Assembly (NCBI RefSeq): GCF_009931435.1
Contig: NZ_CP043414.1
DNA length: 64,000 bases
DNA from: Escherichia coli
GTDB taxonomy: Bacteria > Pseudomonadota > Gammaproteobacteria > Enterobacterales > Enterobacteriaceae
Direction: 5' to 3' (one strand)
This document shows positions 37,606 through 60,801 of this stretch, piece after piece; position 1 is the stretch's first letter; each line of letters begins with the position of its first letter. The translations under genes were made by a program, and so were the position numbers. A model generated the notes under the pieces. That model ran no database searches. It was not told the DNA's origin and saw only the letters and a list, made by a program, of their open reading frames with translations.

Positions 37606-37609
37606 TATC

Positions 37610-37700
37610 CATCCTCCATCGCCACGATAGTTCATGGCGATAGGTAGAATAGCAATGAACGATTATCCCTATCAAGCATTCTGACTGATAATTGCTCACA
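37610..37700. promoter_or_regulatory. oxyR-oxyS divergent promoter region with OxyR binding site
   Basis: GATAGGTAGAATAGCAATGAACGATTATCCCTATCAAGCATT (ATAG-n7-CTAT type repeats) followed by a TGATAAT -10 box just upstream of the oxyS start. Confidence 0.7.
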
Positions 37701-37809
37701 GAAACGGAGCGGCACCTCTTTAACCCTTGAAGTCACTGCCCGTTTCGAGAGTTTCTCAACTCGAATAACTAAAGCCAACGTGAACTTTTGCGGATCTCCA
37801 GGATCCGCT
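37701..37809 (+). ncRNA. oxyS: OxyS small regulatory RNA
   Basis: GAAACGGAGCGGCACCTCTTTAACCCTTGAAGTCACTGCCCGTTTCGAGAGTTTCTCAACTCGAATAACTAAAGCCAACGTGAACTTTTGCGGATCTCCAGGATCCGC followed by a T-run; matches oxyS; divergent from oxyR. Confidence 0.9.
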
Positions 37810-37855
37810 TTTTTTTATTCTACAGGCCCACAGCAAGAGAGCCTGATAGTAACAG

Positions 37856-39139
37856 TTACTCAATCCGATCTTTGACAATAAAGAAGTAACACAGCGCCCC
37901 GGTGAATGTCACACAGGCCGCGATAACCAGCGCCAGATTAAACGAGTGCGTGGTATCCACTACCCAACCGGTTACGATCGGAGCAAAGGAAGCAAAAACA
38001 AAACTGCCAAAGTTTTGAATCCCGGCGATGGAAGCCACTTTTGTTTCTGACACCATCACCTGCACCAGTCCCCATGCAGATGTTCCCGCGAAATGCACGC
38101 AGAACAGCGCCATTGAGATAAACGCTACAGCCTGGGCTGGCGAGGAGGATTGCACGACCAGCAACGTGCCTAATGCCGACATCATCAAACCGCAGACAAT
38201 AGCCGTTTTACGCGTCTTCGCCAGGTCGTAGCCTTTTTTCGCCAGCCGATCGACAACAATACCGTTAACCCACATCCCGACCGCCGCCGCGAGGAAAGGA
38301 ATCGCCGCCACCCAACCGGTTTTCGCCAGACTGAAGCCTTGCTCGGCTTGTAAATAACCGGGTAACCACGCGATGTAGAGCCAACCGGTATAATTGACGC
38401 CAGAGAAACCTAAAATCATCCCCCAGGTTGTCCGATGCTTAAACAGCGCCAGCCACTCGCTAAATTGTAATTGTGGACGCGGTTTAACCGGCGCGGAGAG
38501 ATAGGTCCGTTCTTCGTCGGTCAGGACAAACTGCGCCCGGTTGCGATACCACGCGTACCAACAGATCCCAACCAGAATCCCCGCCACGCCGATGATGACG
38601 AACATTGCCCGCCAGCCCCATGCCAGCTGCATCAATACAAGAGCAGGAGGCGCAATAGCCTGACCGATAACGGTAGATGAGTTAAAAATCCCCAGCGCCG
38701 TGCCGCGTTCTTTTTGCGCATACCAGTCGGTGATCGACTTTACTCCCGCAGGCATAAATGGCGCTTCGCCAATACCCAGACCGATACGCATTAAAATAAA
38801 GTGGCTAAAAGAATTAACCATTCCTGTTAATGCCTGCATTAATGACCAGAATATTAAGCCTGCGCCTAAAACTATTCGTGGGCCAAAGCGGTCTAGCAAA
38901 ATACCGGAAGGGAGTTGTGAAAAACCATAAGACAGAGAAAATGCAGAAAGCAAAACGCCAAATTCTGTCGCCGATAATCCTAACTCGCCACGAATCGCTT
39001 CGCCTGCCACGCTCAATGACGAACGGTCGAGGAAATTAACGATCCCCGCCATAAATAATAAAACCAGCGTTACTGTCTGAATACGACGAATCCGTTGCGG
39101 TTTATTACCCGCAACACTGGTTGACACATCAACGTCCAT
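37856..39139 (-). CDS. MFS transporter, anion:cation symporter (ACS) family; sugar-acid (DgoT/ExuT/GudP-like) permease
   Basis: 427 aa, 12 predicted hydrophobic segments; N-terminal LLFMAGIVNFLDRSSLSVAG and GLGIGEAPFMPA motifs typical of ACS-family hexuronate/aldonate transporters. Confidence 0.8.
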   Translation of the reverse strand: MDVDVSTSVAGNKPQRIRRIQTVTLVLLFMAGIVNFLDRSSLSVAGEAIRGELGLSATEFGVLLSAFSLSYGFSQLPSGILLDRFGPRIVLGAGLIFWSLMQALTGMVNSFSHFILMRIGLGIGEAPFMPAGVKSITDWYAQKERGTALGIFNSSTVIGQAIAPPALVLMQLAWGWRAMFVIIGVAGILVGICWYAWYRNRAQFVLTDEERTYLSAPVKPRPQLQFSEWLALFKHRTTWGMILGFSGVNYTGWLYIAWLPGYLQAEQGFSLAKTGWVAAIPFLAAAVGMWVNGIVVDRLAKKGYDLAKTRKTAIVCGLMMSALGTLLVVQSSSPAQAVAFISMALFCVHFAGTSAWGLVQVMVSETKVASIAGIQNFGSFVFASFAPIVTGWVVDTTHSFNLALVIAACVTFTGALCYFFIVKDRIE

Positions 39140-39205
39140 TTTTAGCTCCTTGAGCGGAATTAATCGATTTGCTGACTATTCAGAAAATAATTAAGCGAAC
39201 CGTTA

Positions 39206-40417
39206 TTACCAGTTCCACAATGTGCCATCTTCCAGTCGTGCGACGGGGAGATACGCCGGGTCATACGGATATTTCGCCGCCAGTTTCTCATCGAAAGAAA
39301 TACCCAGCCCCGGTTCATCGCCTGGGTGCATATAACCTTCATCGAAGCGCCAGCTGTGCGGGAAGACTTCAAGCATTTGTTCGGAATAGCCCATGTACTC
39401 CTGAACACCAAAGTTTGGCACCCAGAGGTCAAAATGCAGCGCCGCCGCATGACAAACAGGCGATAAATCTGAAGGGCCATGCGAACCGGTACGTACCTGA
39501 TAAAGCGATGCAAAATCGGCAATCCGTCGCATCCCGGTAATGCCGCCTGCATGGGTAATCGTCGTGCGAATATAGTCAATCAGCTGCTCTTCGATTAACT
39601 GCTTGCAGTCCCAGATACTGTTAAACACTTCACCGACCGCAATCGGCGTCACAGTATGCTGGCGAATCAGACGAAAACATTCCTGGTTCTCGGCAGGCGT
39701 CGGATCTTCCATCCACAACAGGCGGTAATCCTCAATGCTCTTCCCAAAGCGCGCCGCTTCGATAGGAGTCAGGCGATGGTGCATGTCATGCAACAGATGT
39801 TCGTTAAAACCGAACTTATTACGCACCGCTTCAAATAACTTCGGTGTAAAATCGAGATACTTTTCTGAAGACCACAACTGCTCTTCCGGCCACAGGCCTT
39901 TGGTTGCCGGTTCATACGCCAGTCCTTTGCCCTTCGCCAGGCCATAAGTGGTTTGCATACCCGGTACACCGCACTGCACACGAATCGCCTTAAAGCCCAT
40001 CTGCTGGTGCTTTGCATAGTCTTCAAGGACTTCATCAATCGTGCGCCCGGTGGTGTGGCAATAAACCATCACGCCTTCACGAGAAGCCCCACCAAGCAGT
40101 TGATACAATGGCATATTTGCCGCTTTGGCTTTGATATCCCACAACGCCATATCAATGGCAGAAATGGCCGACATCGTGACGGGGCCACGTCGCCAGTAAG
40201 CACCTTTATAAAAGAATTGCCAGATATCTTCGATACGGCTGGCATCGCGGCCAATTAATTGTGGACAAAGATGATCTTTCAGATAAGAAGCGACCGACAA
40301 TTCGCGACCATTTAATGTGGCATCTCCCAATCCACAAATTCCGCTTGCAGTGGTTATTTTAAGCGTAACGAAATTACGTCCTGGGCAAGTAACAAAAACA
40401 TCTGCAGCAATAATTTT
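39206..40417 (-). CDS. Enolase-superfamily dehydratase, D-mannonate dehydratase (ManD/RspA-like) subgroup
   Basis: Track ORF 39206..40480; homologous start [59 protein letters not shown]...; very similar to E. coli RspA as I recall it. Confidence 0.85.
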
Positions 40418-40768
40418 CATTATTGCAATCTCCTGTGTTGTAAATAGACGCTTCAAACTTAATTTTACGCCTACTACCATACAAGAGAGAAAGGGCGATT
40501 ATTCAACCGTGATCACATTAAAAATAAAAATTTCCGCCGAGGAACAAAAATATCCTCAAATCTCACCTACACTATTAACTACCATCGTTAAAACAACGTG
40601 TTAAATAATCACATAACAAATTCCTTTAAGGAAAGGAGTTATAACAACAACAAAAGATAATCATATTTTACTTAATTCAATACGTATCGATAGGTTTATT
40701 TAAAAAGGATTTTTCGGAATGAGAGATGAAAAGAAGATACACAAGCAGGAAGAAATACGATTAATATT

Positions 40769-40904
40769 AGTTGCGGTAAGGGTAGCCGTTCCTCCCTTCC
40801 GCAACCCATTAACCGTTGAAGTCACAGACTATTTCAGGCATTTCTCAACTCAAAATAACGACAGCCAACGTGAACTTTATGGCTCTCCAGGATCTGCTTT
40901 GTTT
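40769..40904 (+). ncRNA. oxyS-like element: diverged second copy (paralog or relic) of the OxyS sRNA
   Basis: AACCGTTGAAGTCACAGACTATTTCAGGCATTTCTCAACTCAAAATAACGACAGCCAACGTGAACTTTATGGCTCTCCAGGATCTGCTTTGTTTT aligns at about 80 percent identity by eye to oxyS 37722-37817; a 5' stem-loop and a TAATAT -10-like box sit upstream; terminator stem is degenerate. Confidence 0.5.
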
Positions 40905-40908
40905 TCCA

Positions 40909-42387
40909 TCAAACAACGGAGCTCAGCGCACTGGCTACCTGTTTAAAGCGAGCAAACCGTCGCCTGAGCATGTGTGCTTTTTCTACATTCGGTTCAAGAC
41001 GAATCACGTTGAGCTGCGTAGCCTTCATGGCCTGTTTGAATCCAGAATAAGCCCCTCCTCCTACTGCCGCACACATTGCAGCCGCTCTACAACCTGACTG
41101 TTCAATATCGACAATTTCAAGAGGCATTTTGCTGGCATCACAAAACATCTGCATCCAGATTCTGGAATGCGTTGGCCCGCCAGAGAAACGAATCGTTTGC
41201 AATGACTTATCAATCTCAATAAGACGGTCCTGATGCAACAAATGAGAAAAGACAACGCCCTGATAAATAGCGTACACCAAATCTTCTCTTTTATGATGCC
41301 CACACAGCCCCAAAAATCCCCCGCTTAATGCCTCATGGTAATTCGAGCCAAACAACCACGGGAAAAAGAGAATATCATTCTGTTTCTCATACCCTCGTTC
41401 CACCCACTCATTAATCACCCGATAACTGTCAGGAAGACCCGGTAAAAATTGCTGCAAGAACCATGTTAAATTACTGGCTGATGTAGGGCTTCCCTCATGG
41501 GCGAAAAATGTACCTGGAATGCTAAATTTCCCCCATACATAGGGATAATCAGAAGGAATAATGCGATCAAAGATTCGCGTTGCAATTGACCAGGTGCCAG
41601 CAACCGCACTTAACGTTGTACTGTCATAGATGCCAGAAGTGAGCGCCGCACCAACGACATCAAAAACACCACCAAAAACAGGCGTTCCGGCGAGAAGCCC
41701 ACATTGGCTGGCTGCTTCAGATGTCACAAACCCAGCTAAATCAGCGGAGCCAATAATATCGGGAACCTTACCCGCAACTTCCTTAATCTCAAATAGGCGA
41801 AAAAGTTCAGCATCATAAGCACTGGTATATTGATTATAAAAATTACTGCCTGAAATATTGGTTTCTTCACAAGCCAGTTTGCCAGTAAGCCGTGAACGTA
41901 TGTAATCATGAACCATCAAAATGGTTCCGATGCGGCCATAATTGTCAGTCTCATGTTTTTTCAACCAATGCAATAGTGCTACAGGGTGCGATGGCCAGAG
42001 CTGTTGCAGACTACGGTGATAACTTTCGCGGTCAATTCCTTGTTCTTTCCAGCTTGCAACCAGTTGTTGTGCGCGAGAATCAGAGGAAACAATGCCGTGT
42101 CGTAAGGGCTTACCTTGCCGGTCGAGCAGGTACAAACCTTTACCATGAGCAGAAAAACTGATGCCATCAATCTGACTCGCAGTAATATTGTTATCTGACA
42201 TCGACAGTGAAATGACCTGGCACGTTACCTTCCATAACGCCTCCATGTCGCGTTCGCAAAAACCAGGACATGGGCTTAACAGAGGTAACGCCTGCGAAGA
42301 GACACCTATTTCACGTCCTTCTGCCGTATAAATTCCCGCTTTGGTTTCTGTACCACCTAAATCGACACCAATAAAATACCGCTCCAT
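40909..42387 (-). CDS. FGGY-family carbohydrate kinase (L-xylulose/3-keto-L-gulonate kinase LyxK-like)
   Basis: 492 aa MERYFIGVDLGGTETKAGIY... with FGGY N- and C-terminal signatures (HDY..., SGGPTHSRIWMQM); family assignment confident, substrate not. Confidence 0.85.
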   Translation of the reverse strand: MERYFIGVDLGGTETKAGIYTAEGREIGVSSQALPLLSPCPGFCERDMEALWKVTCQVISLSMSDNNITASQIDGISFSAHGKGLYLLDRQGKPLRHGIVSSDSRAQQLVASWKEQGIDRESYHRSLQQLWPSHPVALLHWLKKHETDNYGRIGTILMVHDYIRSRLTGKLACEETNISGSNFYNQYTSAYDAELFRLFEIKEVAGKVPDIIGSADLAGFVTSEAASQCGLLAGTPVFGGVFDVVGAALTSGIYDSTTLSAVAGTWSIATRIFDRIIPSDYPYVWGKFSIPGTFFAHEGSPTSASNLTWFLQQFLPGLPDSYRVINEWVERGYEKQNDILFFPWLFGSNYHEALSGGFLGLCGHHKREDLVYAIYQGVVFSHLLHQDRLIEIDKSLQTIRFSGGPTHSRIWMQMFCDASKMPLEIVDIEQSGCRAAAMCAAVGGGAYSGFKQAMKATQLNVIRLEPNVEKAHMLRRRFARFKQVASALSSVV

Positions 42388-42403
42388 GATCCCTCCTTAG
42401 TTT

Positions 42404-43267
42404 CTAAATATTATCCCAGCCGGCAAGGCGCATTTTCTCTTCAATCCATTGACGTGCATGAATAATTTCTAATAGAGGTTCCGTCGCTTTTTCTGTCCAC
42501 ATTTCTATCAGAAACGTTCCGCGATAATTAAGATTACGCAGGATCTTAAATAATTTAATAAAATCTACACACCCTTCACCAAAAGGAACGTCACGAAATT
42601 GCCCTGGAGAATCAGGCGTTACTGGGTACGTATCTTTAAGATGGATTGCGGCAATTCGATCAATCCCCTTTACCAGCTCACTTTCCAGTTCATTACCCCA
42701 TGCGGTCAGATTGCCAACATCCGGATAAACGGTAAACCAAGGGGAATTAATTTTTGTATCCAGGACTTTCCATTTACTAATAGAATTAATAAATGGCGTA
42801 TCCATGATCTCTACAGCACACATAACTTGTGCCGCTGCGGCCTGTTCAGCTGTCCAGGCCATCGCATCTTCAAACCAGGCGATAGTTTCTTCATTCTGCG
42901 GCTCATAATAAACGTCATAGCCTGCCAGTTGGATTGTTCGAATCCCCAAATCCTGCGCCAGGCGTAACGCCTTCAACATAATCGTACGTGCCTGCTGACG
43001 AGTATCTCTATCATGGCTACCAAATGGAAAACGCCGGTGAGCAGACAGGCACATTGTCGGAATACGGATCCCCGTTTGCTGAATGGCGCTAATAAGCTCC
43101 ATACGCTCGGTGAGCGACCAGTCCAGGCGGGCGAGTCGTTCATCATTCTCATCTACCGACATCTCAACAAAATCAAAACCGCAAGATTTAGCCAGGGCTA
43201 GTTTCTCTACCCAACTGGTATTCCTGGGTAGCGCTTTTTCATAAATACCTAACGGGTGGCGTCGCAT
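42404..43267 (-). CDS. Sugar-phosphate 3-epimerase of the xylose-isomerase-like TIM-barrel family (L-ribulose-5-phosphate 3-epimerase SgbU/UlaE-like)
   Basis: 287 aa MRRHPLGIYEKALPRNTSWVEKLALAKSCGFDFVEMSVDENDERLARLDWS...IRTIQLAGYDVYYE...HLKDT...FLIEMW; close resemblance to SgbU/UlaE as I recall them. Confidence 0.8.
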   Translation of the reverse strand: MRRHPLGIYEKALPRNTSWVEKLALAKSCGFDFVEMSVDENDERLARLDWSLTERMELISAIQQTGIRIPTMCLSAHRRFPFGSHDRDTRQQARTIMLKALRLAQDLGIRTIQLAGYDVYYEPQNEETIAWFEDAMAWTAEQAAAAQVMCAVEIMDTPFINSISKWKVLDTKINSPWFTVYPDVGNLTAWGNELESELVKGIDRIAAIHLKDTYPVTPDSPGQFRDVPFGEGCVDFIKLFKILRNLNYRGTFLIEMWTEKATEPLLEIIHARQWIEEKMRLAGWDNI

Positions 43268-44343
43268 TATTTTCCCTCACGAGTGATCAATTGTTGTTGA
43301 AAGATTTTCCGGCTCTTATTCATGTCACGCTGCAACTGCCATTTTTGTTTGATGAATTTAAATGCCAGTGCGGCGATCAATGTGATCCCCCATACCGCCA
43401 GATTGAAATGCAAACTAAGTCCCAACAGACTAAGGCCGGTAGCAATAACCTGAAGCACAAGTAAGGCACAAAAAACATGACTGACTTTACCCGCCCCACC
43501 GAATGGATCTGTGCCTCCCAATACAATTGCAAGAACCGTCAAGAGCAGATAGGAATCGCCATAGCCCATACGCGCCGAATTAAATCGCGCGAGCATAATA
43601 AGACCTGCTAATACACACAACATGCTGGATATAGCATATATAGCAATTAATACGCGGTCGGTGCGAATACCGCTAAACCATGTGGCGTTAATATTACTGC
43701 CACACATATAAATCGTTTTTCCCGTACGGGTTTTGCCGAGGAACAGAGCTAAAGCAACGGTGGTGACGATAAAAATTATCATCGGTACTGGGATCCCCAT
43801 GATAACTTCAGACCCAATACTGCGGACTACTGGTGGCATACCACTTAAAGCTGCCCCCTTAGTCAGGTAAATACCGATACCACTAATAATGGTCATGCTA
43901 CCCAATGTGACCAAAATAGGGTGAGCGCCTATATGAGAAATAATTGACCCAGTAATAGCTCCAATGATGATGGCAATAAGCATCGCCCCGACAATAGCCA
44001 GGAAGAGCCAAAACAACTGACTACCTGTAGATGCATCTGCGGGTACATATTGAATCAACAGCCAGGCCATAAACAGGCTGGTCAGATTCGCAGTACCGAT
44101 GATTGCCAGATTGAGCCCCCCGCTCAACATGGGTATAAACATCGCAAACGTGAGCAACCCAAGCTCTGGCAATTGAAATGCAATGCTCAGAAAAGTATTG
44201 CCGGTGAAAAAACGCCCCGGCATTACCAGACTAAATAACACCACCGCAATAAAACATATTGATAATAAGCCTGAACTGGTACCATCTAGTGGAAAAAATA
44301 TCCGCTTGTTCATTTCGATCCTCCCGTTAGACGAAACCAACAT
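43267..44343 (-). CDS. ABC transporter permease (CUT2, RbsC/LsrD-like)
   Basis: 358 aa polytopic membrane protein; stop/start overlaps neighbours within the ABC operon. Confidence 0.8.
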   Translation of the reverse strand: MLVSSNGRIEMNKRIFFPLDGTSSGLLSICFIAVVLFSLVMPGRFFTGNTFLSIAFQLPELGLLTFAMFIPMLSGGLNLAIIGTANLTSLFMAWLLIQYVPADASTGSQLFWLFLAIVGAMLIAIIIGAITGSIISHIGAHPILVTLGSMTIISGIGIYLTKGAALSGMPPVVRSIGSEVIMGIPVPMIIFIVTTVALALFLGKTRTGKTIYMCGSNINATWFSGIRTDRVLIAIYAISSMLCVLAGLIMLARFNSARMGYGDSYLLLTVLAIVLGGTDPFGGAGKVSHVFCALLVLQVIATGLSLLGLSLHFNLAVWGITLIAALAFKFIKQKWQLQRDMNKSRKIFQQQLITREGK

Positions 44344-45319
44344 CAGTTTCTTTACGTTTTTTGTAATGGGTCACACAAATCGCCGAGACAATAACCACTC
44401 CAATAACGATATTGACGAAATAACTCGAGATGCCAATCAAATTAAGGCCGTTTTTAAGAATACCGATAAGAAATACGCCCATAAGCGTACCAATGACCGT
44501 ACCACGTCCGCCTGATAAACTGGCACCGCCCAATACCGCTGCAGCCAGCACATCCAACTCTCCGCCAACCAATGCATTCGGCACAACTTCACTCATACGA
44601 TAAGCTTGCAGCATTCCACCAATTGCTGCAGCGGCACCAAGATAACCATAAGCAAACAGATAAATTAGCGACACCCGAATCCCAATACGTCTTGCTGATT
44701 CGGTATTCCCTCCCACGGCATAAAGCTGACGCCCAATATGGGTTTTGTTCATTATCATCCACGTCAGAAATGCCATTCCCAGCATAACCACTAACGGTAA
44801 TCCGATCTGGTAATCTTCTCCGCCAAATTCAAAACTCAGGAAAGAACGCTGCGTAATCCACCAATCCGGTAAATCGTAAATACTGTGGCCATTAGTCAAC
44901 CACATCAACATACCGAACAGTAGCGACTGCATACTAATCGTAATGATGATGGAAACGACATTAAGGTAATAAATAAGAATAGCGTTTATCAAACCAAAAA
45001 TGATGCCAAGAAAAACAGCAAACACCAGACAGAAAAATGGATTTGATAGCGTTTCATTAAGCAGTAACGACGCCACAACATATTGCACAACCGAAGCTAC
45101 TGCTGCAAAAGAGATATCAATTCCGCCAGTAACCAATACGACAAATAATCCGAGGGCGAAAATACCCGTTACGGCATAACTTTCCGAGAGATCGAGCAAG
45201 TTCTGTATTGATAAAAACTCATCGCTCATGATGGAAAAAAATACCAGCATGAGAACAATGACCCATCCTAACCAAGCTTCGACTGAACGAGGAAACCGCA
45301 GCCGCATAAAGCTAACCAT
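44327..45319 (-). CDS. ABC transporter permease (CUT2, RbsC/LsrC-like)
   Basis: 330 aa polytopic membrane protein with GGIDISFAAV and GGxSLxGGRGT motifs typical of ribose-type permeases. Confidence 0.8.
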   Translation of the reverse strand: MVSFMRLRFPRSVEAWLGWVIVLMLVFFSIMSDEFLSIQNLLDLSESYAVTGIFALGLFVVLVTGGIDISFAAVASVVQYVVASLLLNETLSNPFFCLVFAVFLGIIFGLINAILIYYLNVVSIIITISMQSLLFGMLMWLTNGHSIYDLPDWWITQRSFLSFEFGGEDYQIGLPLVVMLGMAFLTWMIMNKTHIGRQLYAVGGNTESARRIGIRVSLIYLFAYGYLGAAAAIGGMLQAYRMSEVVPNALVGGELDVLAAAVLGGASLSGGRGTVIGTLMGVFLIGILKNGLNLIGISSYFVNIVIGVVIVSAICVTHYKKRKETDVGFV

Positions 45320-46829
45320 TAATCACCTCCGCCAACTGCTGCTCGGTATAATTCGAAGGCAACAGCTCATTAATAATCTTTCCGCGCTTCATATGAAAAA
45401 TACGATCGCAGTTATAATAAGCTTCTGGTGCTTCATCAGTAATTAATATCACTGAAATACCCACACCTGAAAGCCGATGAATAAGCTGGTAAATACTATC
45501 TTTTGCGCCAATATCTACACCTACCGTTGGCGCATCCAGAATTAAAACCTTAGGTCGTGTTAAAATCCATTTAGCCAGGACAACCTTTTGTTGATTGCCG
45601 CCAGATAGCGTTGAAAGTGGATTATTTGGATCGGTGACTTTAATATCCAAATCCTGGATCCACTCCTTGACTAAGGTTTCTTTTCGATTTTCATCAATAA
45701 ACCCCGATGCCGTCTTTAAACGATCCAGAATCGAGAGCACCATATTATCGCTGATAGATTGGGGTAATACGGCCCCCAGTGTCAGGCGATCTTCTGAAAC
45801 ATATGCTATTCCCAGTTTTACCGCATGCGTGTTGTCTTTAATTGTAACGGGCTTACCTTCCAGATAAATATCACCACTATCTGGTCGAGTAATACCGAAA
45901 AGACTCAATGCTAATTCAGTTCTCCCCGCACCAAGTAAACCACACAATCCCAGAACCTCGCCCTGGTGTAGTTTTAGAGAAACATCTTCAAATTGCCCTT
46001 TTCTGCATAATTTGTTTAGTTCAAGGACTACTTTGCCTTCAACGCTATTTGGTAGCTTCTTCTGGTGGACTATAGTTTTTCCGGTCATTAACTCAGTAAT
46101 ATCGCCCGGAGAAAGTTGATTGGCAGCCCACGTTCCAATTATCTCTCCATCACGGATGACCGTAATCCGATCTGAAATTTCCTTAACTTCATCAAGGCGG
46201 TGGCTAACAAAAACTACGGTAATATTTTTATCGCGTAAGTAATTCACTGTGCGTAGTAATTGATTAACTTCTGTACGCGTCAATGATGCCGTTGGCTCGT
46301 CCATGATGACTAACCGGGCATCGGCAATCAGAGCCCGGCAAATCGCGACCTGTTGGCGTTGTGCAATCGGCAAATGTTGTACTAACGCATCAGGATCGAG
46401 ATTGAATTGCAGCTCCTGAATTATTTTCTGCGATACATCTCGAAGTTGTTTTTTTCTGTGCAGCCCTAAATATCCCTTCAGGTTGTATTCAAAAGCGATA
46501 TTTTCAGCAACAGAAAGATTTGGGAATAAAGAAAGATCCTGATATATCACCTGAATACCCAGTTCCCGAGCTTTATCAGGAGAAAGACGAGTCCAGGACT
46601 TACCATCTATAATAATTTCACTTCCCGAATCAGGGACATAAACACCACACAGCGTTTTGATCAGAGTACTTTTACCACACCCATTCGCACCAGCAAGACA
46701 ATGAACCTCACCTTTATTTAAGGTAAGATTGATATTCTTTAGAGCCCTATGGCCACCGAAACTTTTCGTTAGTGACCTTAGCGTCACTAATGGTTGCTCC
46801 GCATTCTTCTCTATAATATGAGGCATCAT
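45312..46829 (-). CDS. Sugar ABC transporter ATP-binding protein with duplicated ABC domains (RbsA/LsrA-like)
   Basis: 505 aa; first Walker A GANGCGKST, LSGGNQQK-type signature, second degenerate P-loop GLLGAGRTE as in CUT2 ATPases. Confidence 0.85.
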   Translation of the reverse strand: MMPHIIEKNAEQPLVTLRSLTKSFGGHRALKNINLTLNKGEVHCLAGANGCGKSTLIKTLCGVYVPDSGSEIIIDGKSWTRLSPDKARELGIQVIYQDLSLFPNLSVAENIAFEYNLKGYLGLHRKKQLRDVSQKIIQELQFNLDPDALVQHLPIAQRQQVAICRALIADARLVIMDEPTASLTRTEVNQLLRTVNYLRDKNITVVFVSHRLDEVKEISDRITVIRDGEIIGTWAANQLSPGDITELMTGKTIVHQKKLPNSVEGKVVLELNKLCRKGQFEDVSLKLHQGEVLGLCGLLGAGRTELALSLFGITRPDSGDIYLEGKPVTIKDNTHAVKLGIAYVSEDRLTLGAVLPQSISDNMVLSILDRLKTASGFIDENRKETLVKEWIQDLDIKVTDPNNPLSTLSGGNQQKVVLAKWILTRPKVLILDAPTVGVDIGAKDSIYQLIHRLSGVGISVILITDEAPEAYYNCDRIFHMKRGKIINELLPSNYTEQQLAEVING

Positions 46830-46892
46830 AATATTCCTGAATACGACTAAAGGAATTCCGGGTCAAATTTGACCCGGTGATTTACGGTAAAA

Positions 46893-47897
46893 TTACAAGC
46901 CTAGCTTCACTAAACGTCGTGTATTTTCAAGATCGAGCTTTTCTGGATTATCACTATAAATAGTGTTGTTATTAACCTTGATCTCGCCCATATCACCGAT
47001 TTTTACACCGTCTTTAATAGGTTCACCGTTCATCATTGCCGTCGCAACCTGGACAAAAACCTTACCCGCAATCATAGGGTTTGAAATATATCCCCCATCA
47101 ATGGCACCTTTTTCGAGTAGCTTAATTCCCTGACCTGGAGTGAAGGTTCCAAAAACGCAAATTGCATCATTTTTCTTCCGCTTATCAATAGCACGCCCCG
47201 CACCAATTGGTCCTTGTGAACCAAATGACATAATGCCTTTAAGATCTTTATATTTAGACATTAAATCGTTCGTCGTGCGCATTGAATCATCCACCGACTC
47301 AGCAACACCAAAACGATCTTCAACCAACGTCATATTTGGATAATGTTCTTTTTGATAGGCAATCGCGGCATTGGCCCAGTCATTTACCAAAGGCACAGTC
47401 AGACTGCCGACAAACATGGCGTATTTACCTTCTTCGCCCATACACTTCGCCATATCTTTCATATGATTGGCACCCATTGTCTGGGTATTTAACAACTCAA
47501 AATCCCAATCTGCATTTTTTTGATCTGGTGATTCGTGGGTAATAACTTTAATACCGGCTTCTTGTGCACGCTTAAGTACAGGTTCAAGAACCTTTGCATC
47601 GTTAGGAACAACACCAATAACATCCACTTTTCGTGCAATTAAATCTTCAATCGCCCGAACCTGTTCAGCTGGATCTGCCGTTGTAGGGCCGACCTGCCAT
47701 GCATCAACCCCCAATAGTTTTCCTTCATTTTTAATGCCTTGTTCCATCACATTAAACCAGGGAATTCCACCGACTTTTACTACTACCCCCATCGTAAAAG
47801 GTTTATTCGCTTTTTGTGATGTTACAGTCTGATCAGCCCATGCAGCAGTGGAAGATAATACGGTAGCAATAAGGCAGGGTAAGATTAATTTTTTCAT
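46893..47897 (-). CDS. Periplasmic sugar-binding protein (PBP type I, LsrB/RbsB-like) with signal peptide
   Basis: 334 aa MKKLILPCLIATVLSSTAAWA (signal peptide) followed by a two-lobe sugar-binding fold pattern. Confidence 0.8.
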   Translation of the reverse strand: MKKLILPCLIATVLSSTAAWADQTVTSQKANKPFTMGVVVKVGGIPWFNVMEQGIKNEGKLLGVDAWQVGPTTADPAEQVRAIEDLIARKVDVIGVVPNDAKVLEPVLKRAQEAGIKVITHESPDQKNADWDFELLNTQTMGANHMKDMAKCMGEEGKYAMFVGSLTVPLVNDWANAAIAYQKEHYPNMTLVEDRFGVAESVDDSMRTTNDLMSKYKDLKGIMSFGSQGPIGAGRAIDKRKKNDAICVFGTFTPGQGIKLLEKGAIDGGYISNPMIAGKVFVQVATAMMNGEPIKDGVKIGDMGEIKVNNNTIYSDNPEKLDLENTRRLVKLGL

Positions 47898-48019
47898 CGT
47901 AATTTCCTTAAGAAATAGTTCAGGTGTCAGGAAAACTCGATATAATATCGACCTGACTATTTATATAATTTATAATCCCTTAGGCATTGATTAATAATTT
48001 AGACAATAAATAACGCCTA

Positions 48020-48829
48020 TTATTTATCAACCTCCACAATGTTTAATTGTGGAAATTGTGTTCGATACCGAGTATCTGTACAAACATTAGTCACCAGAAT
48101 ATCGATTTCATCCAGCGTGCATATTTTACTAAATGCATACTGTTCAAACTTAGTGGAGTCGACCAGCAATATTTTTTGTCCTGACACCTGAAGCATCACC
48201 TGTTTAAGTCTGGCATTAATTTCACTGCCATCGCGGACACCATTCCCCAGATTCAACCCCTGGCATGAAAAGAAAAAACTGTTGATTTGAAAATTTCGGA
48301 TCGCACTCTCTGCAACCGGGCCATGAAAATCATCATGTCGCTCAGAATACTCACCACCGATACCAATAATTCGAACTCGATCACGGCAAGCTAACGCCTG
48401 AATTATCCGTAATGAATTTGTAACTACGGTAACATCTATATCGGGAATTTGACGAGCTAAAAACCAACAAGTACTACTGTTATCCATTAAAATACAATCA
48501 CCAGGGTGAATAAATTGCAATGCGGCCTTCGCAATTCTGGCTTTTATATCAGGATTTTCTTCAGTCCGTTTACGGAATGATTCCGCACGATCGATACTAT
48601 TATCTTGCCACGCATTATCGGCGAGCATAACCGGAGCGCTATCAGATGAATCCAGAGCGACCGCGCCACCAAAGCTACGGATTAACTTTTTGTTGCGCTC
48701 CAGTACCGTTAAATCCCGACGAATTGTCTCAGGAGACGCTTTAAATAATCGTGATAATTCAGTTACCCGCACAGCACCTTGTTTTTGTACATGTGCGCAT
48801 ATCATTTTATGGCGCTCTGCCTGCAACAT
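48020..48829 (-). CDS. DeoR/GlpR-family transcriptional regulator
   Basis: 269 aa; N-terminal HTH (VTELSRLFKASPETIRRDLTVLE) and C-terminal DeoR sugar-phosphate-binding domain; first gene of the minus-strand operon. Confidence 0.85.
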   Translation of the reverse strand: MLQAERHKMICAHVQKQGAVRVTELSRLFKASPETIRRDLTVLERNKKLIRSFGGAVALDSSDSAPVMLADNAWQDNSIDRAESFRKRTEENPDIKARIAKAALQFIHPGDCILMDNSSTCWFLARQIPDIDVTVVTNSLRIIQALACRDRVRIIGIGGEYSERHDDFHGPVAESAIRNFQINSFFFSCQGLNLGNGVRDGSEINARLKQVMLQVSGQKILLVDSTKFEQYAFSKICTLDEIDILVTNVCTDTRYRTQFPQLNIVEVDK

Positions 48830-49282
48830 AGTATCGGTCCGTTATTATCAAATTAGCATGCTTATATAATTAACTGTTCCCTCATAAAATAAAGTGATAG
48901 GAATCAAGATTCATTTTATAATTATAATCGCAAACAGGAATGGTGATCTTTATCACAAATTAAATTGAGAACACTCTACTATTTGACATTACTTTGAGAT
49001 ATCGGTCACTAAATAAGTCTTATTCTGCCATCTAACGAAAAATTTAAATACAAAAACAAAAATAATCGGGCATAGCAATCGCTTCCATTCATGACCGAAT
49101 ACGCCCGAATAAAACCGTTTATACCCACTTATCCTCTTTCGTTGCCTTCTTACATGCCTTGAATATTTTACATTTCTTATATTCAGCGTAATTTAGGAAA
49201 CATAATTTATGAGCAAAAAAAGCCCAAACTCAAAAGTTAAAGTTTATTTATATAATACATACAGATTATCGTGGAGTTAAAA

Positions 49283-49975
49283 ATGGATATGCTAAAGGAA
49301 AAAGTTCTTGCTGCGAATTTATCATTACCCCTTCATCAGTTAGTGACGTTTACCTGGGGAAATGTTAGTGGTGTTGATCGCGAAAAAGGTGTCATGGTTA
49401 TTAAACCTTCTGGGGTCGAATACAGCCAAATGGGCATTGCAGATATGGTGGTAGTGGATTTACAAAGTGGTGAAGTTATTGATGGACACAGGAAACCCTC
49501 TTCAGACACCGATACTCATCTGGCGCTATACCGTGCTTTCCCGGATATTGGTGGTATCGTTCATACCCATTCCCGACACGCCACAATATGGGCTCAGGCC
49601 GGAAAAGATCTCACGGCCTTTGGGACAACCCACGCTGATTATTTCTACGGCACTATCCCCTGTACACGCCCCATGAAGGATGACGAAATTAATGGACAAT
49701 ATGAATATGAAACGGGGCGAGTGATTATTGAAACGTTCAGACAACGAGAAATATCTCCCGCTGACATTCCGGCTGTTTTAGTAAACAGTCATGGCCCCTT
49801 TGCCTGGGGAACTGATCCCGCGAACGCCGTGCATAACGCCGTTGTACTTGAAGAAATTGCCTATATGAATCTCTTTACACAACAACTACAGCCCCATCTT
49901 ACGGCTATTCAACAGCCTCTACTGGATAAGCATTTTTTACGCAAGCATGGTGCCAATGCTTATTACGGGCAGTAA
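49283..49975 (+). CDS. L-ribulose-5-phosphate 4-epimerase (class II aldolase fold; AraD/SgbE/UlaF paralog)
   Basis: Track ORF 49271..49975; about three-quarters identical by eye to AraD ([31 protein letters not shown]...[14 protein letters not shown]...HGPFAWG...[18 protein letters not shown]); start chosen by alignment, alternative ATGs at 49271 and 49289. Confidence 0.85.
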
Positions 49976-50024
49976 CCCTCTTAGCATGGCCTGGCGTTTT
50001 GCCAAGCCATAAATCGCCTAAGAC

Positions 50025-51398
50025 TTACTCCAACCGCGCCTGCGCAAAAGCAATCGCCTGCGCCACCTGCTGCGGTGAGACGCCGCCTTTTGCCGCACGC
50101 TTGTCGAGGCACGATTGCAGCGACAGAATCGGATAGACATCTTCGCCAATCACCTGACTGAATTTCTGCAACTCACTGAGCGGCAGATCTTCCAGCGGTT
50201 TGCCCTGACGAATGGCTTCCACCACCGCTTCACCAACAATATGGTGCGCCTCGCGGAACGGCACACCTTTCGCCACCAGGTAATCCGCCAGTTCAGTGGC
50301 GTTCGCATACCCCTGCTGCGCCGCTTCCTGGCAACGTGGGCGTTTCACCTGAATGCCGTCCAGCACCAGCGCCGCCATATGCAGGCAGTCCAGCCAGGTA
50401 TCGAGCGCGTCGAATAAGCCCTCTTTGTCTTCCTGCATATCTTTGTTGTAAGCCAGCGGCAAACCTTTCAGCGTCATCATCATGCCAGTCAACGCGCCCT
50501 GAACACGACCGCATTTACCCCGAATCAGCTCCAGCGCATCCGGGTTTTTCTTCTGCGGCATTAATGATGAACCGGAAGTCACGCGATCAGAAAGCTCCAC
50601 AAAACCCGCTTCGCCGGTGTTAAAGAAAATCAGATCTTCGGCAAAACGCGACAAATGCACCATACCGATAGCGGCGGCAGAAAGCAGTTCCAGCACGTGG
50701 TCGCGGTCAGAAACGCTGTCGAGACTGTTACGGGTCGCCGAGGCAAAGCCCAGCCAGCCTGCTAACTGTTCACGGTCGATTTCATAAGCCGTTCCCGCCA
50801 GTGCGCCACAGCCTAACGGGCTGACATCCAGACGCTTAAGCGCATCCTGCAAACGACTTTCATCACGCGCCAGCATCTCAACATAGGCCAGGCACCAGTG
50901 CGCGAACGTCACCGGCTGGGCGCGTTGCAGGTGAGTGTAACCAGGCATTACCGCGTCCTGATTATTCTGCGCGGTCTCGACCAGAGCGGATTGTAACTGT
51001 CGGTTAGCCGTCAGTAACTCGCTAACGGTATCTTTGCACCACAGTTTCAGGTCAGTCGCTACCTGATCATTACGGCTACGCCCGGTGTGCAGTTTTTTGC
51101 CTAACTGGCCCACTTTGTCGATCAGTTTGCCTTCTACCCAGCTATGGATATCTTCAGCGTCGCTTTCAAGAATTTGTTGTGGTCTGGCGCGAACATCTTC
51201 CAGCAGCACATTGAGCGCCTCTTCCAGTTGCACCTGTTCTTCTGCGGTTAACACGCCTACCGTTACCAGCGCTTTGGACCAGGCCACAGAGCCAACAATA
51301 TCCTGCTCCGCCAGACGGTAATCAAAGCGCAGTGAGTCGTTGAATTGTTTAAACCGTTGATCTGCTGCCTGGGTAAAACGCCCGCCCCAAAGTGCCAT
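50025..51398 (-). CDS. argH: Argininosuccinate lyase
   Basis: 457 aa [45 protein letters not shown]... Confidence 0.97.
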
Positions 51399-51458: not shown

Positions 51459-52235
51459 TTAAGCTAAAATCCGCGTACCCATCGGCATACCGTTAAACAG
51501 TGCCGGAAGCTGTTCCGCATGACGCCAGGAAGCGATATCTACCGGGCGGCCCAGCGTGCGCGCAGCATCCAGCGCCGCGTTCACTTTCACTATCATGCCG
51601 TCAGTAATAATGCCCTGCTCAATCAGTTGTTCTGCTTTCGCGGCGGTCATTTCGGCAATACGTTGCCCTTTGCCGTCGAGAATACCGCTGACATCAGAGA
51701 GCAAAATCAGATCTGCGCCCAGCGTTGCCGCCAGCGCCGTCGCCGCCTGGTCGGCATTGACGTTCATCAGTTGCCCTTCGTCTGTTACGCCAATGGAGCT
51801 GACCACCGGCAGATAACCGTTCTCCAGCAATGTGTTGATAAGCTTAGGCGAACCTGGCTGCGCCAGTCCAACATGGCCTAACTCTTCATCGAGCTGGGTC
51901 ACTTTTACGCTGTCGCCGTCACCAAGAAACAGGCCTACGCCAGCAATCTGATGTTTCTTCGCCCACGCCAGCAAGGTTTTATTTGCCGTTCCCGCCAGCG
52001 CCCCGGTGATAATGTCTATCTGATCCGCAGGCGTCACCCGCAGGCCATTTTTCTTTTTCACCGGCAGATTCAGCCCTTTCATTAGTTCATCCACCACGCA
52101 GCCGCCGCCGTGAACAATCACCAGCGGACGCTGATGTGACTCACGATAATTCACCAGTGCGCTAAACAGACGTTCCAGCGCCTCTTCGCTATCCAACAGT
52201 ACGCCGCCCAGTTTGATAATTAATGGATTCATCAT
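51459..52235 (-). CDS. argB: Acetylglutamate kinase
   Basis: Track ORF 51459..52313; homologous start [45 protein letters not shown] (258 aa). Confidence 0.95.
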
Positions 52236-52242
52236 TGCACCC

Positions 52243-53247: not shown

Positions 53248-53329
53248 CGGGGCTATTCACCTTCTTATGTCTGGTTGCCTGGTTAAACGTAAAACATTCA
53301 CCTTACGGCTGGTGGGTTTTATTACGCTC

Positions 53330-53380
53330 AACGTTAGTGTATTTTTATTCACAATTAATGCATGAATATTGATACTATCA
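53330..53380. promoter_or_regulatory. argE / argCBH divergent control region with ARG-box-like operators
   Basis: AT-rich imperfect palindromes TGTATTTTTATTCACA and TGCATGAATATTGATA between the divergent argC and argE starts. Confidence 0.5.
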
Positions 53381-53400
53381 TGACCAGAGGTGTGTCAACA

Positions 53401-54552: not shown

Positions 54553-54556
54553 AACG

Positions 54557-54655
54557 CAGGCTGGATAAGGCGTTTACGCCGCATCCGGCACCGTTGTCAA
54601 ACGCCAGCGCCGCAATAATGTCGGATGCGATGCTTACGCATCTTATCCGACCTAC
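54557..54655. repeat. REP elements (BIME-like pair) between argE and ppc
   Basis: GCAGGCTGGATAAGGCGTTTACGCCGCATCCGGC and GTCGGATGCGATGCTTACGCATCTTATCCGACCTAC: typical REP palindromes in opposite orientations. Confidence 0.65.
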
Positions 54656-57555: not shown

Positions 57556-57569
57556 TCTTCCCCCCTCCT

Positions 57570-60800: not shown

Positions 60801-60801
60801 T

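What the first reader, a model, noticed from the sequence alone, without database searches (positions are those of the whole stretch)
43267..48829. Compositional mosaic inside the island: AT-rich transporter and regulator genes versus core-like dehydratase module
Hand counts on sample 60-nt lines give about 33-42 percent GC for the ABC transporter and DeoR genes, about 47-53 percent for the kinase, the two epimerases, and about 55 percent for the dehydratase (E. coli average is about 51 percent). This suggests at least two separate acquisitions or a chimeric donor. The AT-rich part is a likely H-NS-silenced segment.
Basis: seen in the sequence. Interest (0 to 1): 0.4.

Follow-up and report, generated by a model that had tools for sequence, protein, structure and literature searches.

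The report
Two-part sugar island beside oxyS
The low-GC stretch is real, but it is one conserved eight-gene sugar-uptake and breakdown unit inserted next to an older two-gene unit at a known variable spot between oxyS and argH, which is an ordinary case of stepwise gene gain.

Summary
One low-GC block runs from about 40742 to 50024 (43.0% GC; rest of window 52.1%). It holds eight genes: FGGY kinase, L-ribulose-5-P 3-epimerase, two permeases, ATPase, binding protein, DeoR regulator, and a divergent L-ribulose-5-P 4-epimerase. All eight are outliers in GC, GC3 and codon usage. MFS and manD are not.

The kinase and both epimerases belong with the AT-rich transporter genes, not with the dehydratase. 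The same eight genes, in the same order, occur in at least eight other genera and on IncF plasmids, and per-gene identities are congruent. The small internal GC gradient (4.3 points) recurs, larger, in every other taxon examined.

"Two acquisitions" is supported:
- Of 5426 complete E. coli genomes, 1859 carry MFS+manD and 146 also carry the module. None has the module alone.
- A decayed second oxyS copy (40776-40898) abuts the kinase gene. In Citrobacter and Atlantibacter the module lies directly between oxyS and argH.

The likely function is import of a ketopentose, probably L-xylulose, and conversion to D-xylulose-5-P. This is inferred. H-NS silencing is plausible but untested. This is ordinary island biology.

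The parts
37701..37809 (+). Genuine oxyS sRNA gene. Its terminator, ending at about 37816, is the left edge of the variable region.
   Evidence: Rfam OxyS scores 133.4 bits against a gathering score of 75. It is 99.6% identical to K-12-type oxyS, and homology with all three locus states ends at 37816.
37856..39139 (-). MFS transporter of the anion:cation symporter type (D-galactonate-transporter-like). Second gene of the older module.
   Evidence: NCBIfam TIGR00893 scores 275 bits, below its cutoff. GC is 0.512, z = -0.6. Orthologues of 84-89% identity occur in Raoultella, Cedecea, Kluyvera and Atlantibacter. In Raoultella the orthologue lies next to rspA-rspB.
39206..40420 (-). manD, an enolase-superfamily D-mannonate dehydratase. 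It is a paralogue of the core gene rspA.
   Evidence: NCBIfam ManD equivalog scores 730 bits against a cutoff of 550. It is 92% aa identical to E. coli RspA and about 81.5% nt identical. GC is 0.500, z = -1.0.
40421..40741 (.). manD upstream spacer shared with manD-only genomes. Identity fades from about 98% to about 60-70% between 40620 and 40745.
   Evidence: Sliding-window identity and alignment against L002. blastn homology with the manD-only locus stops at 40741. The whole manD-kinase spacer (40421-40908) has GC 0.352.
40776..40898 (+). Decayed second oxyS copy (relic) at the left end of the AT-rich module. Its end abuts the kinase stop codon.
   Evidence: Rfam OxyS scores 30.1 bits, E = 0.008, below the gathering score. 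blastn gives 80% identity to true oxyS. Direct repeats lie 3089 nt from the true copy. Aligned with Citrobacter and Atlantibacter oxyS.
40909..42387 (-). FGGY-family sugar kinase, last gene of the operon. Proposed L-xylulose (ketopentose) kinase.
   Evidence: Best NCBIfam match is XylB at 200 bits, below its cutoff of 380. PDB best match is 3IFR. The gene is intact and its conserved motifs are kept. GC is 0.460.
42404..43267 (-). L-ribulose-5-phosphate 3-epimerase (UlaE/SgbU type).
   Evidence: NCBIfam PRK13210 scores 476 bits (cutoff 200). TIGR00542 scores 458.5 bits (cutoff 272). GC is 0.457.
43267..44313 (-). ABC transporter permease 1.
   Evidence: Matches ribose/allose/arabinose-type permease models, all below their equivalog cutoffs. 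RefSeq annotation. GC is 0.448.
44327..45319 (-). ABC transporter permease 2.
   Evidence: NCBIfam matches, annotation. GC is 0.432.
45312..46829 (-). Sugar ABC transporter ATPase with two fused ATP-binding domains.
   Evidence: Matches XylG, AraG and RbsA-type models at 402-452 bits, below each equivalog cutoff. GC is 0.420.
46858..46877 (-). GC-rich hairpin in the spacer between the binding-protein and ATPase genes.
   Evidence: Terminator-like scan found 8 pairs, 6 of them G-C. A role as an attenuator is inference only.
46893..47897 (-). Periplasmic sugar-binding protein, a paralogue of the D-ribulose-binding AauA.
   Evidence: PDB 9I1M (AauA) scores 285 bits and 3D02 scores 287 bits. Identity to AauA is 49%. 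Five of six ligand-contact residues are kept and His167 is replaced by Val171. The valine is invariant in 14 orthologues. GC is 0.417.
48020..48829 (-). DeoR/GlpR-family regulator, first gene of the operon.
   Evidence: Matches FucR, SrlR and AgaR-type models below their cutoffs. GC is 0.420 and GC3 is 0.344, among the lowest of the island (SBP: 0.417, 0.343).
48830..49282 (.). Divergent control region, 30% GC. It holds a CRP-like site at 48942-48957 and operator-like 10-mers ATTCGGKCAT at 49064-49073 and 49091-49110.
   Evidence: The motifs are conserved in the equivalent spacer of 11 other taxa. Three of the nine matches with one mismatch or fewer in the 64 kb window fall here.
49283..49975 (+). 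L-ribulose-5-phosphate 4-epimerase (AraD/SgbE/UlaF type), divergently transcribed.
   Evidence: NCBIfam PRK12347 scores 434 bits (cutoff 386). TIGR00760 scores 414 bits (cutoff 389). GC is 0.457.
49986..50010 (.). Hairpin between araD-like and argH. It is homologous to the terminator shared by oxyS and argH in K-12-type genomes. The right edge of the variable region is the argH stop codon at 50025.
   Evidence: Sequence comparison with K-12-type, Citrobacter and Atlantibacter loci. Homology with all locus states resumes at 50024/50025.

Best explanation
The oxyS-argH spacer is a variable site that exists in three nested states. State 1 is empty (54 bp, K-12 type). State 2 carries MFS+manD. State 3, this window, carries MFS+manD plus a 9.3 kb eight-gene module.

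The compositional break separates two units with different histories.

Unit 1, manD-MFS, derives from the rspA neighbourhood of a GC-similar member of the Enterobacteriaceae. That is why it looks core-like.

Unit 2 is a self-contained catabolic unit that moves as a single piece. It consists of:
- a DeoR repressor;
- a CUT2-type ABC importer (binding protein, ATPase, two permeases);
- an FGGY kinase;
- an L-ribulose-5-P 3-epimerase;
- a divergent L-ribulose-5-P 4-epimerase.

Unit 2 entered from a non-Escherichia donor in which it lay directly beside oxyS, and it brought most of that donor's oxyS with it. That copy is now a decayed relic.

Proposed mechanism (inferred): a ketopentose, most likely L-xylulose, is imported and phosphorylated to L-xylulose-5-P. 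It is then epimerised at C3 to L-ribulose-5-P and at C4 to D-xylulose-5-P, which enters the pentose phosphate pathway. Expression is probably repressed by the DeoR protein at conserved 10-mer repeats and activated by CRP.

The mild GC gradient inside unit 2 is a gene-specific property of the cluster, not a sign of mosaic origin.
For: Shown:
- Three states with exact junctions.
- Frequencies of 1859 and 146 of 5426 genomes, with no module-only genome.
- Relic oxyS.
- The same eight genes in the same order in Atlantibacter, Citrobacter, Erwinia, Pantoea, Yersinia, Serratia, Affinibrenneria and Providencia. In Atlantibacter and the C. amalonaticus group they lie between argH and oxyS/oxyR without manD.
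- The whole unit sits on a conjugative IncFIC plasmid of C. freundii next to IS1.
- In all eight genes E. coli is sister to Atlantibacter+Citrobacter. The divergence ratio is 1.2-1.7 for every gene, including the fast-evolving kinase.
- The GC gradient recurs in 11 other taxa with a larger range, 8.4-13.2 points against 4.3 here.
- Composition statistics.
- ManD is 92% identical to RspA. The MFS orthologue lies beside rspAB in Raoultella.

Bearing on function:
- Both epimerases score above the curated NCBIfam cutoffs.
- The binding protein is 49% identical to the D-ribulose-binding AauA. Five of six contact residues are invariant. The sixth, the His that contacts the C2 and C4 hydroxyls, is Val in all 14 orthologues (PMC12307932). 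L-xylulose is the C4 epimer of D-ribulose.
- The flanking genes differ between genera, so no further enzyme is consistently linked to the cluster.
- Conserved operator-like repeats and a CRP-like site.
Against: - No donor with near-identical DNA was found. The closest sampled relatives are only 67-95% identical at the protein level.
- The argH end next to the module is E. coli-like (99% to the K-12 type over the first 200 nt). No trace of a homologous crossover in argH remains.
- The order of events is not resolved. The module may have been inserted into a manD-bearing locus, or a manD segment recombined into a module-bearing locus.
- The substrate assignment rests on gene content and one binding-site substitution. 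The kinase belongs to no characterised FGGY subfamily: its best match is XylB, below the cutoff.
- Correlations of the GC gradient between taxa are only marginally significant with eight genes (rho 0.45-0.75).
Confidence: 0.8

Rival explanations
1. One reading: the island is a three-tier mosaic with AT-rich ABC and DeoR genes, intermediate kinase and epimerase genes, and a core-like dehydratase. On this view it was assembled from more than two sources or from a chimeric donor.
For: The enzyme genes average 45.8% GC against 42.7% for the ABC and DeoR genes. The kinase is only 67-70% identical to its nearest orthologues, while its neighbours are 81-95% identical.
Against: - Gene order is identical in at least eight other genera and on plasmids.
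- The same gradient (DeoR lowest, kinase highest) appears in every taxon, and more strongly.
- The kinase is the fastest-evolving gene in all lineages. Its E. coli/Atlantibacter divergence relative to Atlantibacter/Citrobacter (1.67) lies within the range of the other genes, 1.2-1.7.
- The kinase's divergence is spread evenly along the protein.
Confidence: 0.07
2. The whole 12 kb island (MFS, manD and the module) was acquired once. The manD-only state arose later by deletion of the module.
For: Every module-bearing E. coli genome also has MFS+manD. The two states share the left 2.9 kb and about 320 bp of the manD upstream spacer.
Against: - There is a sharp compositional break between the two units.
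- The relic oxyS shows that the module once lay directly next to an oxyS, with no manD between them.
- Citrobacter and Atlantibacter carry the module at this site without manD.
- manD-only genomes have their own 172 bp with a REP-like element and a different hairpin next to argH, rather than a deletion joint.
- manD-only genomes are about 12 times more common.
Confidence: 0.08
3. The low GC is not foreign ancestry. It reflects local mutational bias or relaxed selection acting on resident genes.
For: Some core genes in the window are also lowish in GC3, for example murB at 0.402 and birA at 0.469.
Against: The block is absent from 97% of complete E. coli genomes. It has precise junctions, carries a foreign-looking oxyS remnant, and has orthologues in many genera and on plasmids. 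All genes are intact.
Confidence: 0.02

Closest known systems
Aau (EHEC) and Rbl (Citrobacter rodentium) D-ribulose ABC uptake systems (Cottam et al. 2025, PMC12307932; AauA structure 9I1M)
   Same: Both use a CUT2-type ABC importer with a ketopentose-type binding protein. The binding protein here is 49% identical to AauA, and five of six sugar-contact residues are identical. Like Rbl, this system has an FGGY kinase in the same operon. Like both, it is an accessory locus in gut Enterobacteriaceae.
   Different: The His that contacts the C2 and C4 hydroxyls of D-ribulose is Val here. The associated enzymes are an L-Ru5P 3-epimerase and an L-Ru5P 4-epimerase, not the KpsF-like isomerase of Rbl. 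There is a DeoR regulator. The chromosomal site differs. The enzymes point to an L-series pentulose, not D-ribulose.
The lower part of the E. coli Ula and YiaK-S/Sgb pathways (UlaE/SgbU, UlaF/SgbE, LyxK). This comparison rests on established knowledge (Yew and Gerlt 2002), not on a test here.
   Same: The same two epimerisation steps, L-xylulose-5-P to L-ribulose-5-P to D-xylulose-5-P. Both epimerases score above the curated family cutoffs.
   Different: There is no 3-keto-L-gulonate-6-P decarboxylase (UlaD/SgbH), no PTS or TRAP transporter, and no lactonase or dehydrogenase. The kinase's best family match is XylB rather than any rhamnulokinase-type model; the literature places LyxK in the RhaB-related branch (PMC3245297), but the kinase was not compared with LyxK itself. 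Uptake is by an ABC system.
The rspA-rspB locus (starvation-sensing protein RspA, a ManD-family dehydratase)
   Same: The island's ManD is 92% identical to E. coli RspA. In Raoultella its MFS partner's orthologue sits beside rspA-rspB.
   Different: There is no rspB-type dehydrogenase here. The gene order is manD then MFS. The pair sits at the oxyS-argH site and is present in only about a third of E. coli genomes.
Chromosomal integration hotspots filled by homologous recombination in the flanking genes (a general concept in E. coli pangenome studies; from general knowledge)
   Same: The borders are fixed (the oxyS terminator and the argH stop codon) while the contents are alternative and nested. 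There is no integrase, tRNA gene or IS element. A 14 kb tract (36350-50340) is about 100% identical to nine E. coli genomes, although the window's flanks are only about 97% identical to any complete E. coli genome.
   Different: Nothing essential. The relic oxyS is an unusually clear footprint of the donor context.

Membership tests
Horizontally acquired genomic island | Base composition and codon usage differ from the host core genes. | tested here: met
   Met for the eight-gene module: GC z = -2.4 to -4.0, with lower CAI. Not met for MFS and manD (z = -0.6 and -1.0).
Horizontally acquired genomic island | Presence/absence polymorphism within the species, with fixed junctions. | tested here: met
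   Of 5426 genomes, 146 have the module and 1859 have MFS+manD. The borders lie at the oxyS terminator and the argH stop codon.
Horizontally acquired genomic island | Mobility apparatus: integrase, a tRNA target, flanking direct repeats or IS elements. | tested here: not met
   The ORF list, family scans and annotation show no integrase or transposase. No tRNA gene is annotated between oxyR and argH. The only flanking repeat is the oxyS/relic pair. Spread is by flanking homologous recombination. Related alleles are plasmid-borne.
CUT2-type monosaccharide ABC importer | A periplasmic binding protein, one ATPase of about 500 aa with two ATP-binding domains, and two RbsC-like permeases. | tested here: met
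   All four components match ribose, xylose, arabinose and AI-2-type models. None reaches any equivalog cutoff, so the substrate cannot be assigned by homology.
Aau/Rbl D-ribulose systems | Binding protein with the AauA ligand-contact set (Lys37, Trp43, Glu118, His167, Glu196, Ser223). | tested here: not met
   Five of six residues are kept. His167 is Val in all 14 orthologues.
Aau/Rbl D-ribulose systems | Associated D-ribulokinase and KpsF-like isomerase (Rbl), or no enzymes at all (Aau). | tested here: not met
   The enzymes here are an FGGY kinase of unassigned type plus L-Ru5P 3- and 4-epimerases.
L-xylulose-5-P to D-xylulose-5-P pathway (UlaE/SgbU + UlaF/SgbE/AraD) | L-ribulose-5-P 3-epimerase and 4-epimerase both present. 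| tested here: met
   3-epimerase: 476 bits (cutoff 200) and 458.5 bits (cutoff 272). 4-epimerase: 434 bits (cutoff 386) and 414 bits (cutoff 389).
L-xylulose-5-P to D-xylulose-5-P pathway (UlaE/SgbU + UlaF/SgbE/AraD) | A source of L-xylulose-5-P: a UlaD/SgbH decarboxylase or an L-xylulose kinase. | tested here: inconclusive
   No decarboxylase is present. An FGGY kinase is present, but its specificity is unknown: its best match is XylB at 200 bits, below the cutoff of 380.
ManD (enolase-superfamily D-mannonate dehydratase) | Score above the curated equivalog cutoff. | tested here: met
   NF043051 scores 730 bits against a cutoff of 550. It is 92% identical to RspA. Top PDB matches are 4IL2 (named starvation sensing protein RspA) and 4E4F (mannonate dehydratase).
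OxyS sRNA (second copy at 40776-40898) | Rfam RF00035 gathering score and an intact structure. | tested here: not met
   It scores 30.1 bits against 75. Several stem pairs are broken and there is a 19-nt insertion in place of 7 nt. It is a relic, not a second functional gene.
H-NS-silenced xenogeneic DNA | AT content above the genome average, with AT-rich nucleation tracts. | tested here: met
   The module is 57% AT against 48% for the rest of the window. 9.7% of its 100-nt windows reach 65% AT, against 0.6% elsewhere. These windows concentrate at 40511-40780, 47871-48090 and 48821-49340.
H-NS-silenced xenogeneic DNA | High-affinity motif tCGATAAATT (Lang et al. 2007, PMC2094087). | tested here: not met
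   The module has no match with one mismatch or fewer. Density at two mismatches or fewer is 1.4 per kb, against 1.12 per kb outside.
H-NS-silenced xenogeneic DNA | H-NS occupancy and derepression in an hns mutant. | not testable with these tools
   No ChIP or expression data are available for a strain that carries the module.

The most novel reading that the evidence does not exclude
The eight-gene module may be a so far uncharacterised ABC-dependent L-xylulose (or closely related L-ketopentose) utilisation system. It is spread across Enterobacterales, including Yersinia, Providencia and Citrobacter, occurs on IncF plasmids and is rare in E. coli. It would be a sister to the recently described Aau and Rbl D-ribulose systems, with specificity switched by a His-to-Val change in the binding pocket. 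A minor addition: the relic shows that an sRNA gene, oxyS, can be carried along as the edge of a transferred island and then decay.
Probability: 0.4. Interest if true: 0.45.

Novelty: new member of a known kind. Interest (0 to 1): 0.25.

Why it matters
The work corrects the reading of the island. The compositional step marks the seam between two independently acquired units, not a patchwork within the sugar operon. It also gives a clean example of nested gene gain at a fixed intergenic site, with a footprint (the relic oxyS) that records the donor's gene order.

The practical value is modest. The work defines a conserved, mobile eight-gene cluster whose substrate could be tested directly. That cluster is related to pentulose-scavenging systems shown to affect gut colonisation by EHEC and C. 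rodentium (PMC12307932).

Tried and rejected
- Kinase as a separately acquired gene. It looked like an outlier (67-70% identity against 81-95% for its neighbours). I rejected this because it is the fastest-evolving gene in every lineage, its relative divergence ratio is in line with the other genes, and its divergence is evenly spread along the protein.
- Mobility signatures at the borders. I looked for direct or inverted repeats and IS or integrase genes. Only the oxyS/relic repeat was found.
- The module on plasmids at high DNA identity. There was no match. A protein-level search did find a Pantoea-type allele on IncF plasmids, but this is not the E. coli allele.
- Literature on an oxyR-argH or oxyS-argH island. 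The search returned only a paper on oxyS evolution and an unrelated OxyR paper, and neither mentions insertions.
- Literature on an ABC-linked L-xylulose pathway. Nothing specific was found.
- H-NS high-affinity motif. It is not enriched.
- Extra conserved neighbouring enzymes in other genera, such as a xylitol dehydrogenase. The flanks differ between genera.
- An apparent low-GC ORF at 20897-22189. This is only an over-extended reading of coaA.
-. Its output mixed several loci held in one file, so I discarded it. One search replaces it.

Full report
**Locus and genes**

The finding lies in the region between oxyR/oxyS and argH of an Escherichia chromosome. RefSeq annotation of the closest E. 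coli genome (NZ_CM148325), NCBIfam scans and ORF checks give this gene order:
- oxyR, 36688-37605 (-)
- oxyS, 37701-37809 (+) (Rfam 133 bits)
- an MFS transporter, 37856-39139 (-)
- manD, 39206-40420 (-)
- a 488-bp AT-rich spacer
- an FGGY kinase, 40909-42387 (-)
- L-ribulose-5-P 3-epimerase, 42404-43267 (-)
- two ABC permeases, 43267-44313 and 44327-45319 (-)
- an ABC ATPase, 45312-46829 (-)
- a periplasmic binding protein, 46893-47897 (-)
- a DeoR regulator, 48020-48829 (-)
- a 453-bp spacer
- a divergent L-ribulose-5-P 4-epimerase, 49283-49975 (+)
- argH, 50025-51398 (-)

All of these genes are intact.

**Checking the observation**

The sliding-window profile shows one continuous low-GC block from about 40.25 to 49.5 kb. 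Whole-gene values are:

| Gene | GC |
|---|---|
| MFS | 0.512 |
| manD | 0.500 |
| kinase | 0.460 |
| 3-epimerase | 0.457 |
| permeases | 0.448, 0.432 |
| ATPase | 0.420 |
| binding protein | 0.417 |
| DeoR | 0.420 |
| 4-epimerase | 0.457 |
| argH | 0.557 |

I compared these with 20 core genes of the same window (GC 0.529 +/- 0.028, GC3 0.571 +/- 0.058). A CAI reference was built from the window's own rpoBC, rplKAJL and tufB genes. The eight genes from kinase to 4-epimerase lie 2.4-4.0 sd low in GC and 1.9-3.9 sd low in GC3. They have lower CAI and a larger codon-usage distance, with Mann-Whitney p of 6e-7 to 8e-6. MFS and manD fall inside the core range.

Its hand counts were too low for the ABC and DeoR genes, and too high for the kinase, the epimerases and manD. 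Single 60-nt lines scatter with an sd of about 6 points. The stated span, 43267-48829, is the middle of a 9.3 kb block (40742-50024, 43.0% GC). The rest of the window is 52.1% GC.

**Three states of one site**

I searched 5426 complete E. coli genomes:
- The oxyS flank is present in 5425.
- MFS+manD is present in 1859.
- The AT-rich block is present in 146, and all of these also have MFS+manD.

Representative loci and pairwise alignment show a common left border just after the oxyS terminator (37816). The common right border is the argH stop codon (50024/50025). Between these borders:
- K-12-type genomes have 54 bp.
- manD-only genomes have MFS, manD, about 325 bp of shared upstream spacer, and then 172 bp of their own with a REP-like element and a hairpin.
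- The window has MFS, manD, the shared spacer fading out between 40620 and 40745, and then the 9.3 kb block.

**A footprint of the donor**

A second, degraded oxyS lies at 40776-40898. Its end abuts the kinase stop codon. It is 80% identical to the true oxyS and scores 30.1 bits against the Rfam gathering score of 75. The two copies are the only notable direct repeat in the island, 3089 nt apart.

A scan of one genome per bacterial species with the binding protein found the same eight genes in the same order in Atlantibacter, the Citrobacter amalonaticus group, Erwinia, Pantoea, Yersinia (including Y. pestis), Serratia, Affinibrenneria and Providencia. In Atlantibacter and Citrobacter the cluster lies between argH and oxyS/oxyR, with no manD, and oxyS ends about 70 nt from the kinase stop.

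The relic's 20% divergence from E. coli oxyS matches the divergence between genera (E. coli against Citrobacter oxyS is 80-87%). By contrast, module alleles within E. coli differ by only about 1.7%. The simplest reading is that the block came from another enterobacterial genus, where it sat beside oxyS, and carried most of that oxyS with it.

The converse order is also possible: a manD-bearing segment may have recombined into a module-bearing locus. I cannot exclude this.

The window's own flanks are only about 97% identical to the best complete E. coli genome. The tract 36350-50340, however, is about 100% identical to nine E. coli genomes. The whole island therefore moves between lineages by homologous recombination in oxyR/sthA and argH. 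No integrase, IS element or tRNA gene is involved.

**Is the AT-rich block itself a mosaic?**

No. Four results argue against it:
- Gene order is conserved in every genus listed above. A complete copy, a Pantoea-type allele 94.7% identical in DNA to P. coffeiphila, sits on a conjugative IncFIC plasmid of C. freundii between IS1 and an ars operon. Related copies (binding protein about 89% identical) occur on other Citrobacter, Klebsiella and Enterobacter plasmids.
- Per-gene identity matrices give the same relationships for all eight genes, with E. coli sister to Atlantibacter+Citrobacter.
- The kinase looks aberrant at 67-70% identity, but it is the fastest-evolving gene in all lineages. Its relative divergence ratio (1.67) lies within the range of the others (1.2-1.7), and its differences are spread evenly along the protein.
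- The internal GC order (DeoR lowest, then binding protein and ATPase, then the permeases, with epimerase and kinase highest) recurs in all 11 other taxa examined, whatever their genomic GC. The spread there is 8.4-13.2 points, against only 4.3 in E. coli.

The gradient is a property of the genes, not of separate origins.

**Origin of the core-like part**

ManD is 92% identical in protein, and about 81.5% in DNA, to the core paralogue RspA. The nearest non-E. coli relatives of the MFS transporter (84-89%) are in Raoultella, Cedecea, Kluyvera, Klebsiella aerogenes and Atlantibacter. In Raoultella the orthologue lies directly beside rspA-rspB, and in Cedecea it lies in the same cluster.

The manD-MFS pair is thus a derivative of the enterobacterial rsp neighbourhood, taken from a donor of similar GC content. 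This explains its unremarkable composition. After the oxyS terminator, the K-12-type spacer continues with the hairpin sequence also seen in Citrobacter. This suggests that the empty state is ancestral and that manD-MFS is itself an insertion.

**Likely function of the module (inferred)**

- Both epimerases exceed the curated family cutoffs. They catalyse L-xylulose-5-P to L-ribulose-5-P to D-xylulose-5-P, as in the Ula and Sgb pathways (established knowledge). There is no UlaD/SgbH decarboxylase, so the FGGY kinase most simply makes L-xylulose-5-P from imported L-xylulose.
- The binding protein is 49% identical to AauA, whose structure with D-ribulose is 9I1M (PMC12307932). Five of the six sugar-contact residues are invariant in 14 orthologues. 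The sixth, the His that hydrogen-bonds the C2 and C4 hydroxyls, is always Val. L-xylulose is the C4 epimer of D-ribulose.
- The flanking genes differ between genera, so no further enzyme is consistently linked to the cluster.
- The 30%-GC divergent spacer contains a near-consensus CRP-like site (48942-48957). It also holds tandem and inverted 10-mers, ATTCGGKCAT (49064-49073 and 49091-49110). Both are conserved in the same position in 11 other taxa. This fits control by the DeoR repressor and catabolite activation.

None of this has been tested experimentally.

**H-NS**

The module is 57% AT. Windows of 100 nt with at least 65% AT are about 16 times more frequent in it than in the rest of the window. 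They cluster in the three intergenic regions. H-NS preferentially covers long AT-rich, horizontally acquired tracts (PMC3064808). The published high-affinity motif (PMC2094087) is not enriched in the module, and no occupancy data exist for a carrier strain. Silencing is plausible but unproven. The most AT-rich segments are also conserved regulatory DNA.

**Verdict**

The compositional step is genuine. It marks the seam between two separately acquired units at a fixed intergenic hotspot. This is a well-understood kind of pangenome structure. The relic oxyS and the probable L-ketopentose specificity are the only mildly new points.

Noticed in passing
window 40776-40898 (+): A decayed second copy of the oxyS sRNA gene lies 3089 nt downstream of the real one. 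It keeps the conserved central AAUAAC..AGCCAACGUGAAC stretch and a weakened terminator stem. It has lost the OxyR-binding promoter region.
   Followed up: yes
window 1-36000 and 52000-64000, compared with 36350-50340: The core flanks are only about 97% identical to the best of 5426 complete E. coli genomes (one genome reaches 99.0% on the right side). The source is therefore probably a divergent Escherichia lineage. The island tract itself is about 100% identical to nine E. coli genomes, which indicates recent exchange by homologous recombination.
   Followed up: partly
L004-L007 and L034, about 16950-17125 and 7700-8050; window 49986-50010: In Citrobacter and Atlantibacter the module is bracketed on both sides by copies of the hairpin AAAAGCCYGGC-N5-6-GCCAGGC. 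This is the terminator shared by oxyS and argH in K-12-type genomes. It hints that the original insertion duplicated or split this hairpin. In the window only the argH-side copy survives.
   Followed up: partly
L062 (C. freundii plasmid NZ_OW967264) 7780-16994: The complete eight-gene module, a Pantoea-type allele with 53.5% GC, is carried on a conjugative IncFIC plasmid between an IS1 transposase and an ars operon. In all, 12 plasmid records (those listed are from Citrobacter, Klebsiella and Enterobacter) carry a binding protein 80-90% identical to the window's.
   Followed up: partly
L013 (Yersinia pestis) 11205-11714: An IS200-like transposase ORF is inserted between the binding-protein and ATPase genes of the Y. 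pestis copy. This probably disrupts operon expression.
   Followed up: partly
window 48942-48957, 49064-49073, 49091-49110: A near-consensus CRP-like site and an array of ATTCGGKCAT 10-mers (two tandem, one inverted) lie in the DeoR/araD-like divergent spacer. Both are conserved in 11 other taxa. The 10-mers are a candidate DeoR operator.
   Followed up: partly
window 39206-40420; L057 2501-3715; L058 6001-9665: The island's ManD is 92% identical to the core RspA. In Raoultella its MFS partner's orthologue sits immediately upstream of rspA-rspB, so the island's pair looks like a relocated piece of the rsp locus.
   Followed up: partly
L002 7180-7240: manD-only E. coli genomes have a REP-like palindromic element and a distinct hairpin between the manD upstream spacer and argH. 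Both are absent from the window.
   Followed up: no
window 22218-24208: The core genes birA and murB have rather low GC3 (0.469 and 0.402). Low GC3 alone is therefore not proof of foreign origin in this window.
   Followed up: no
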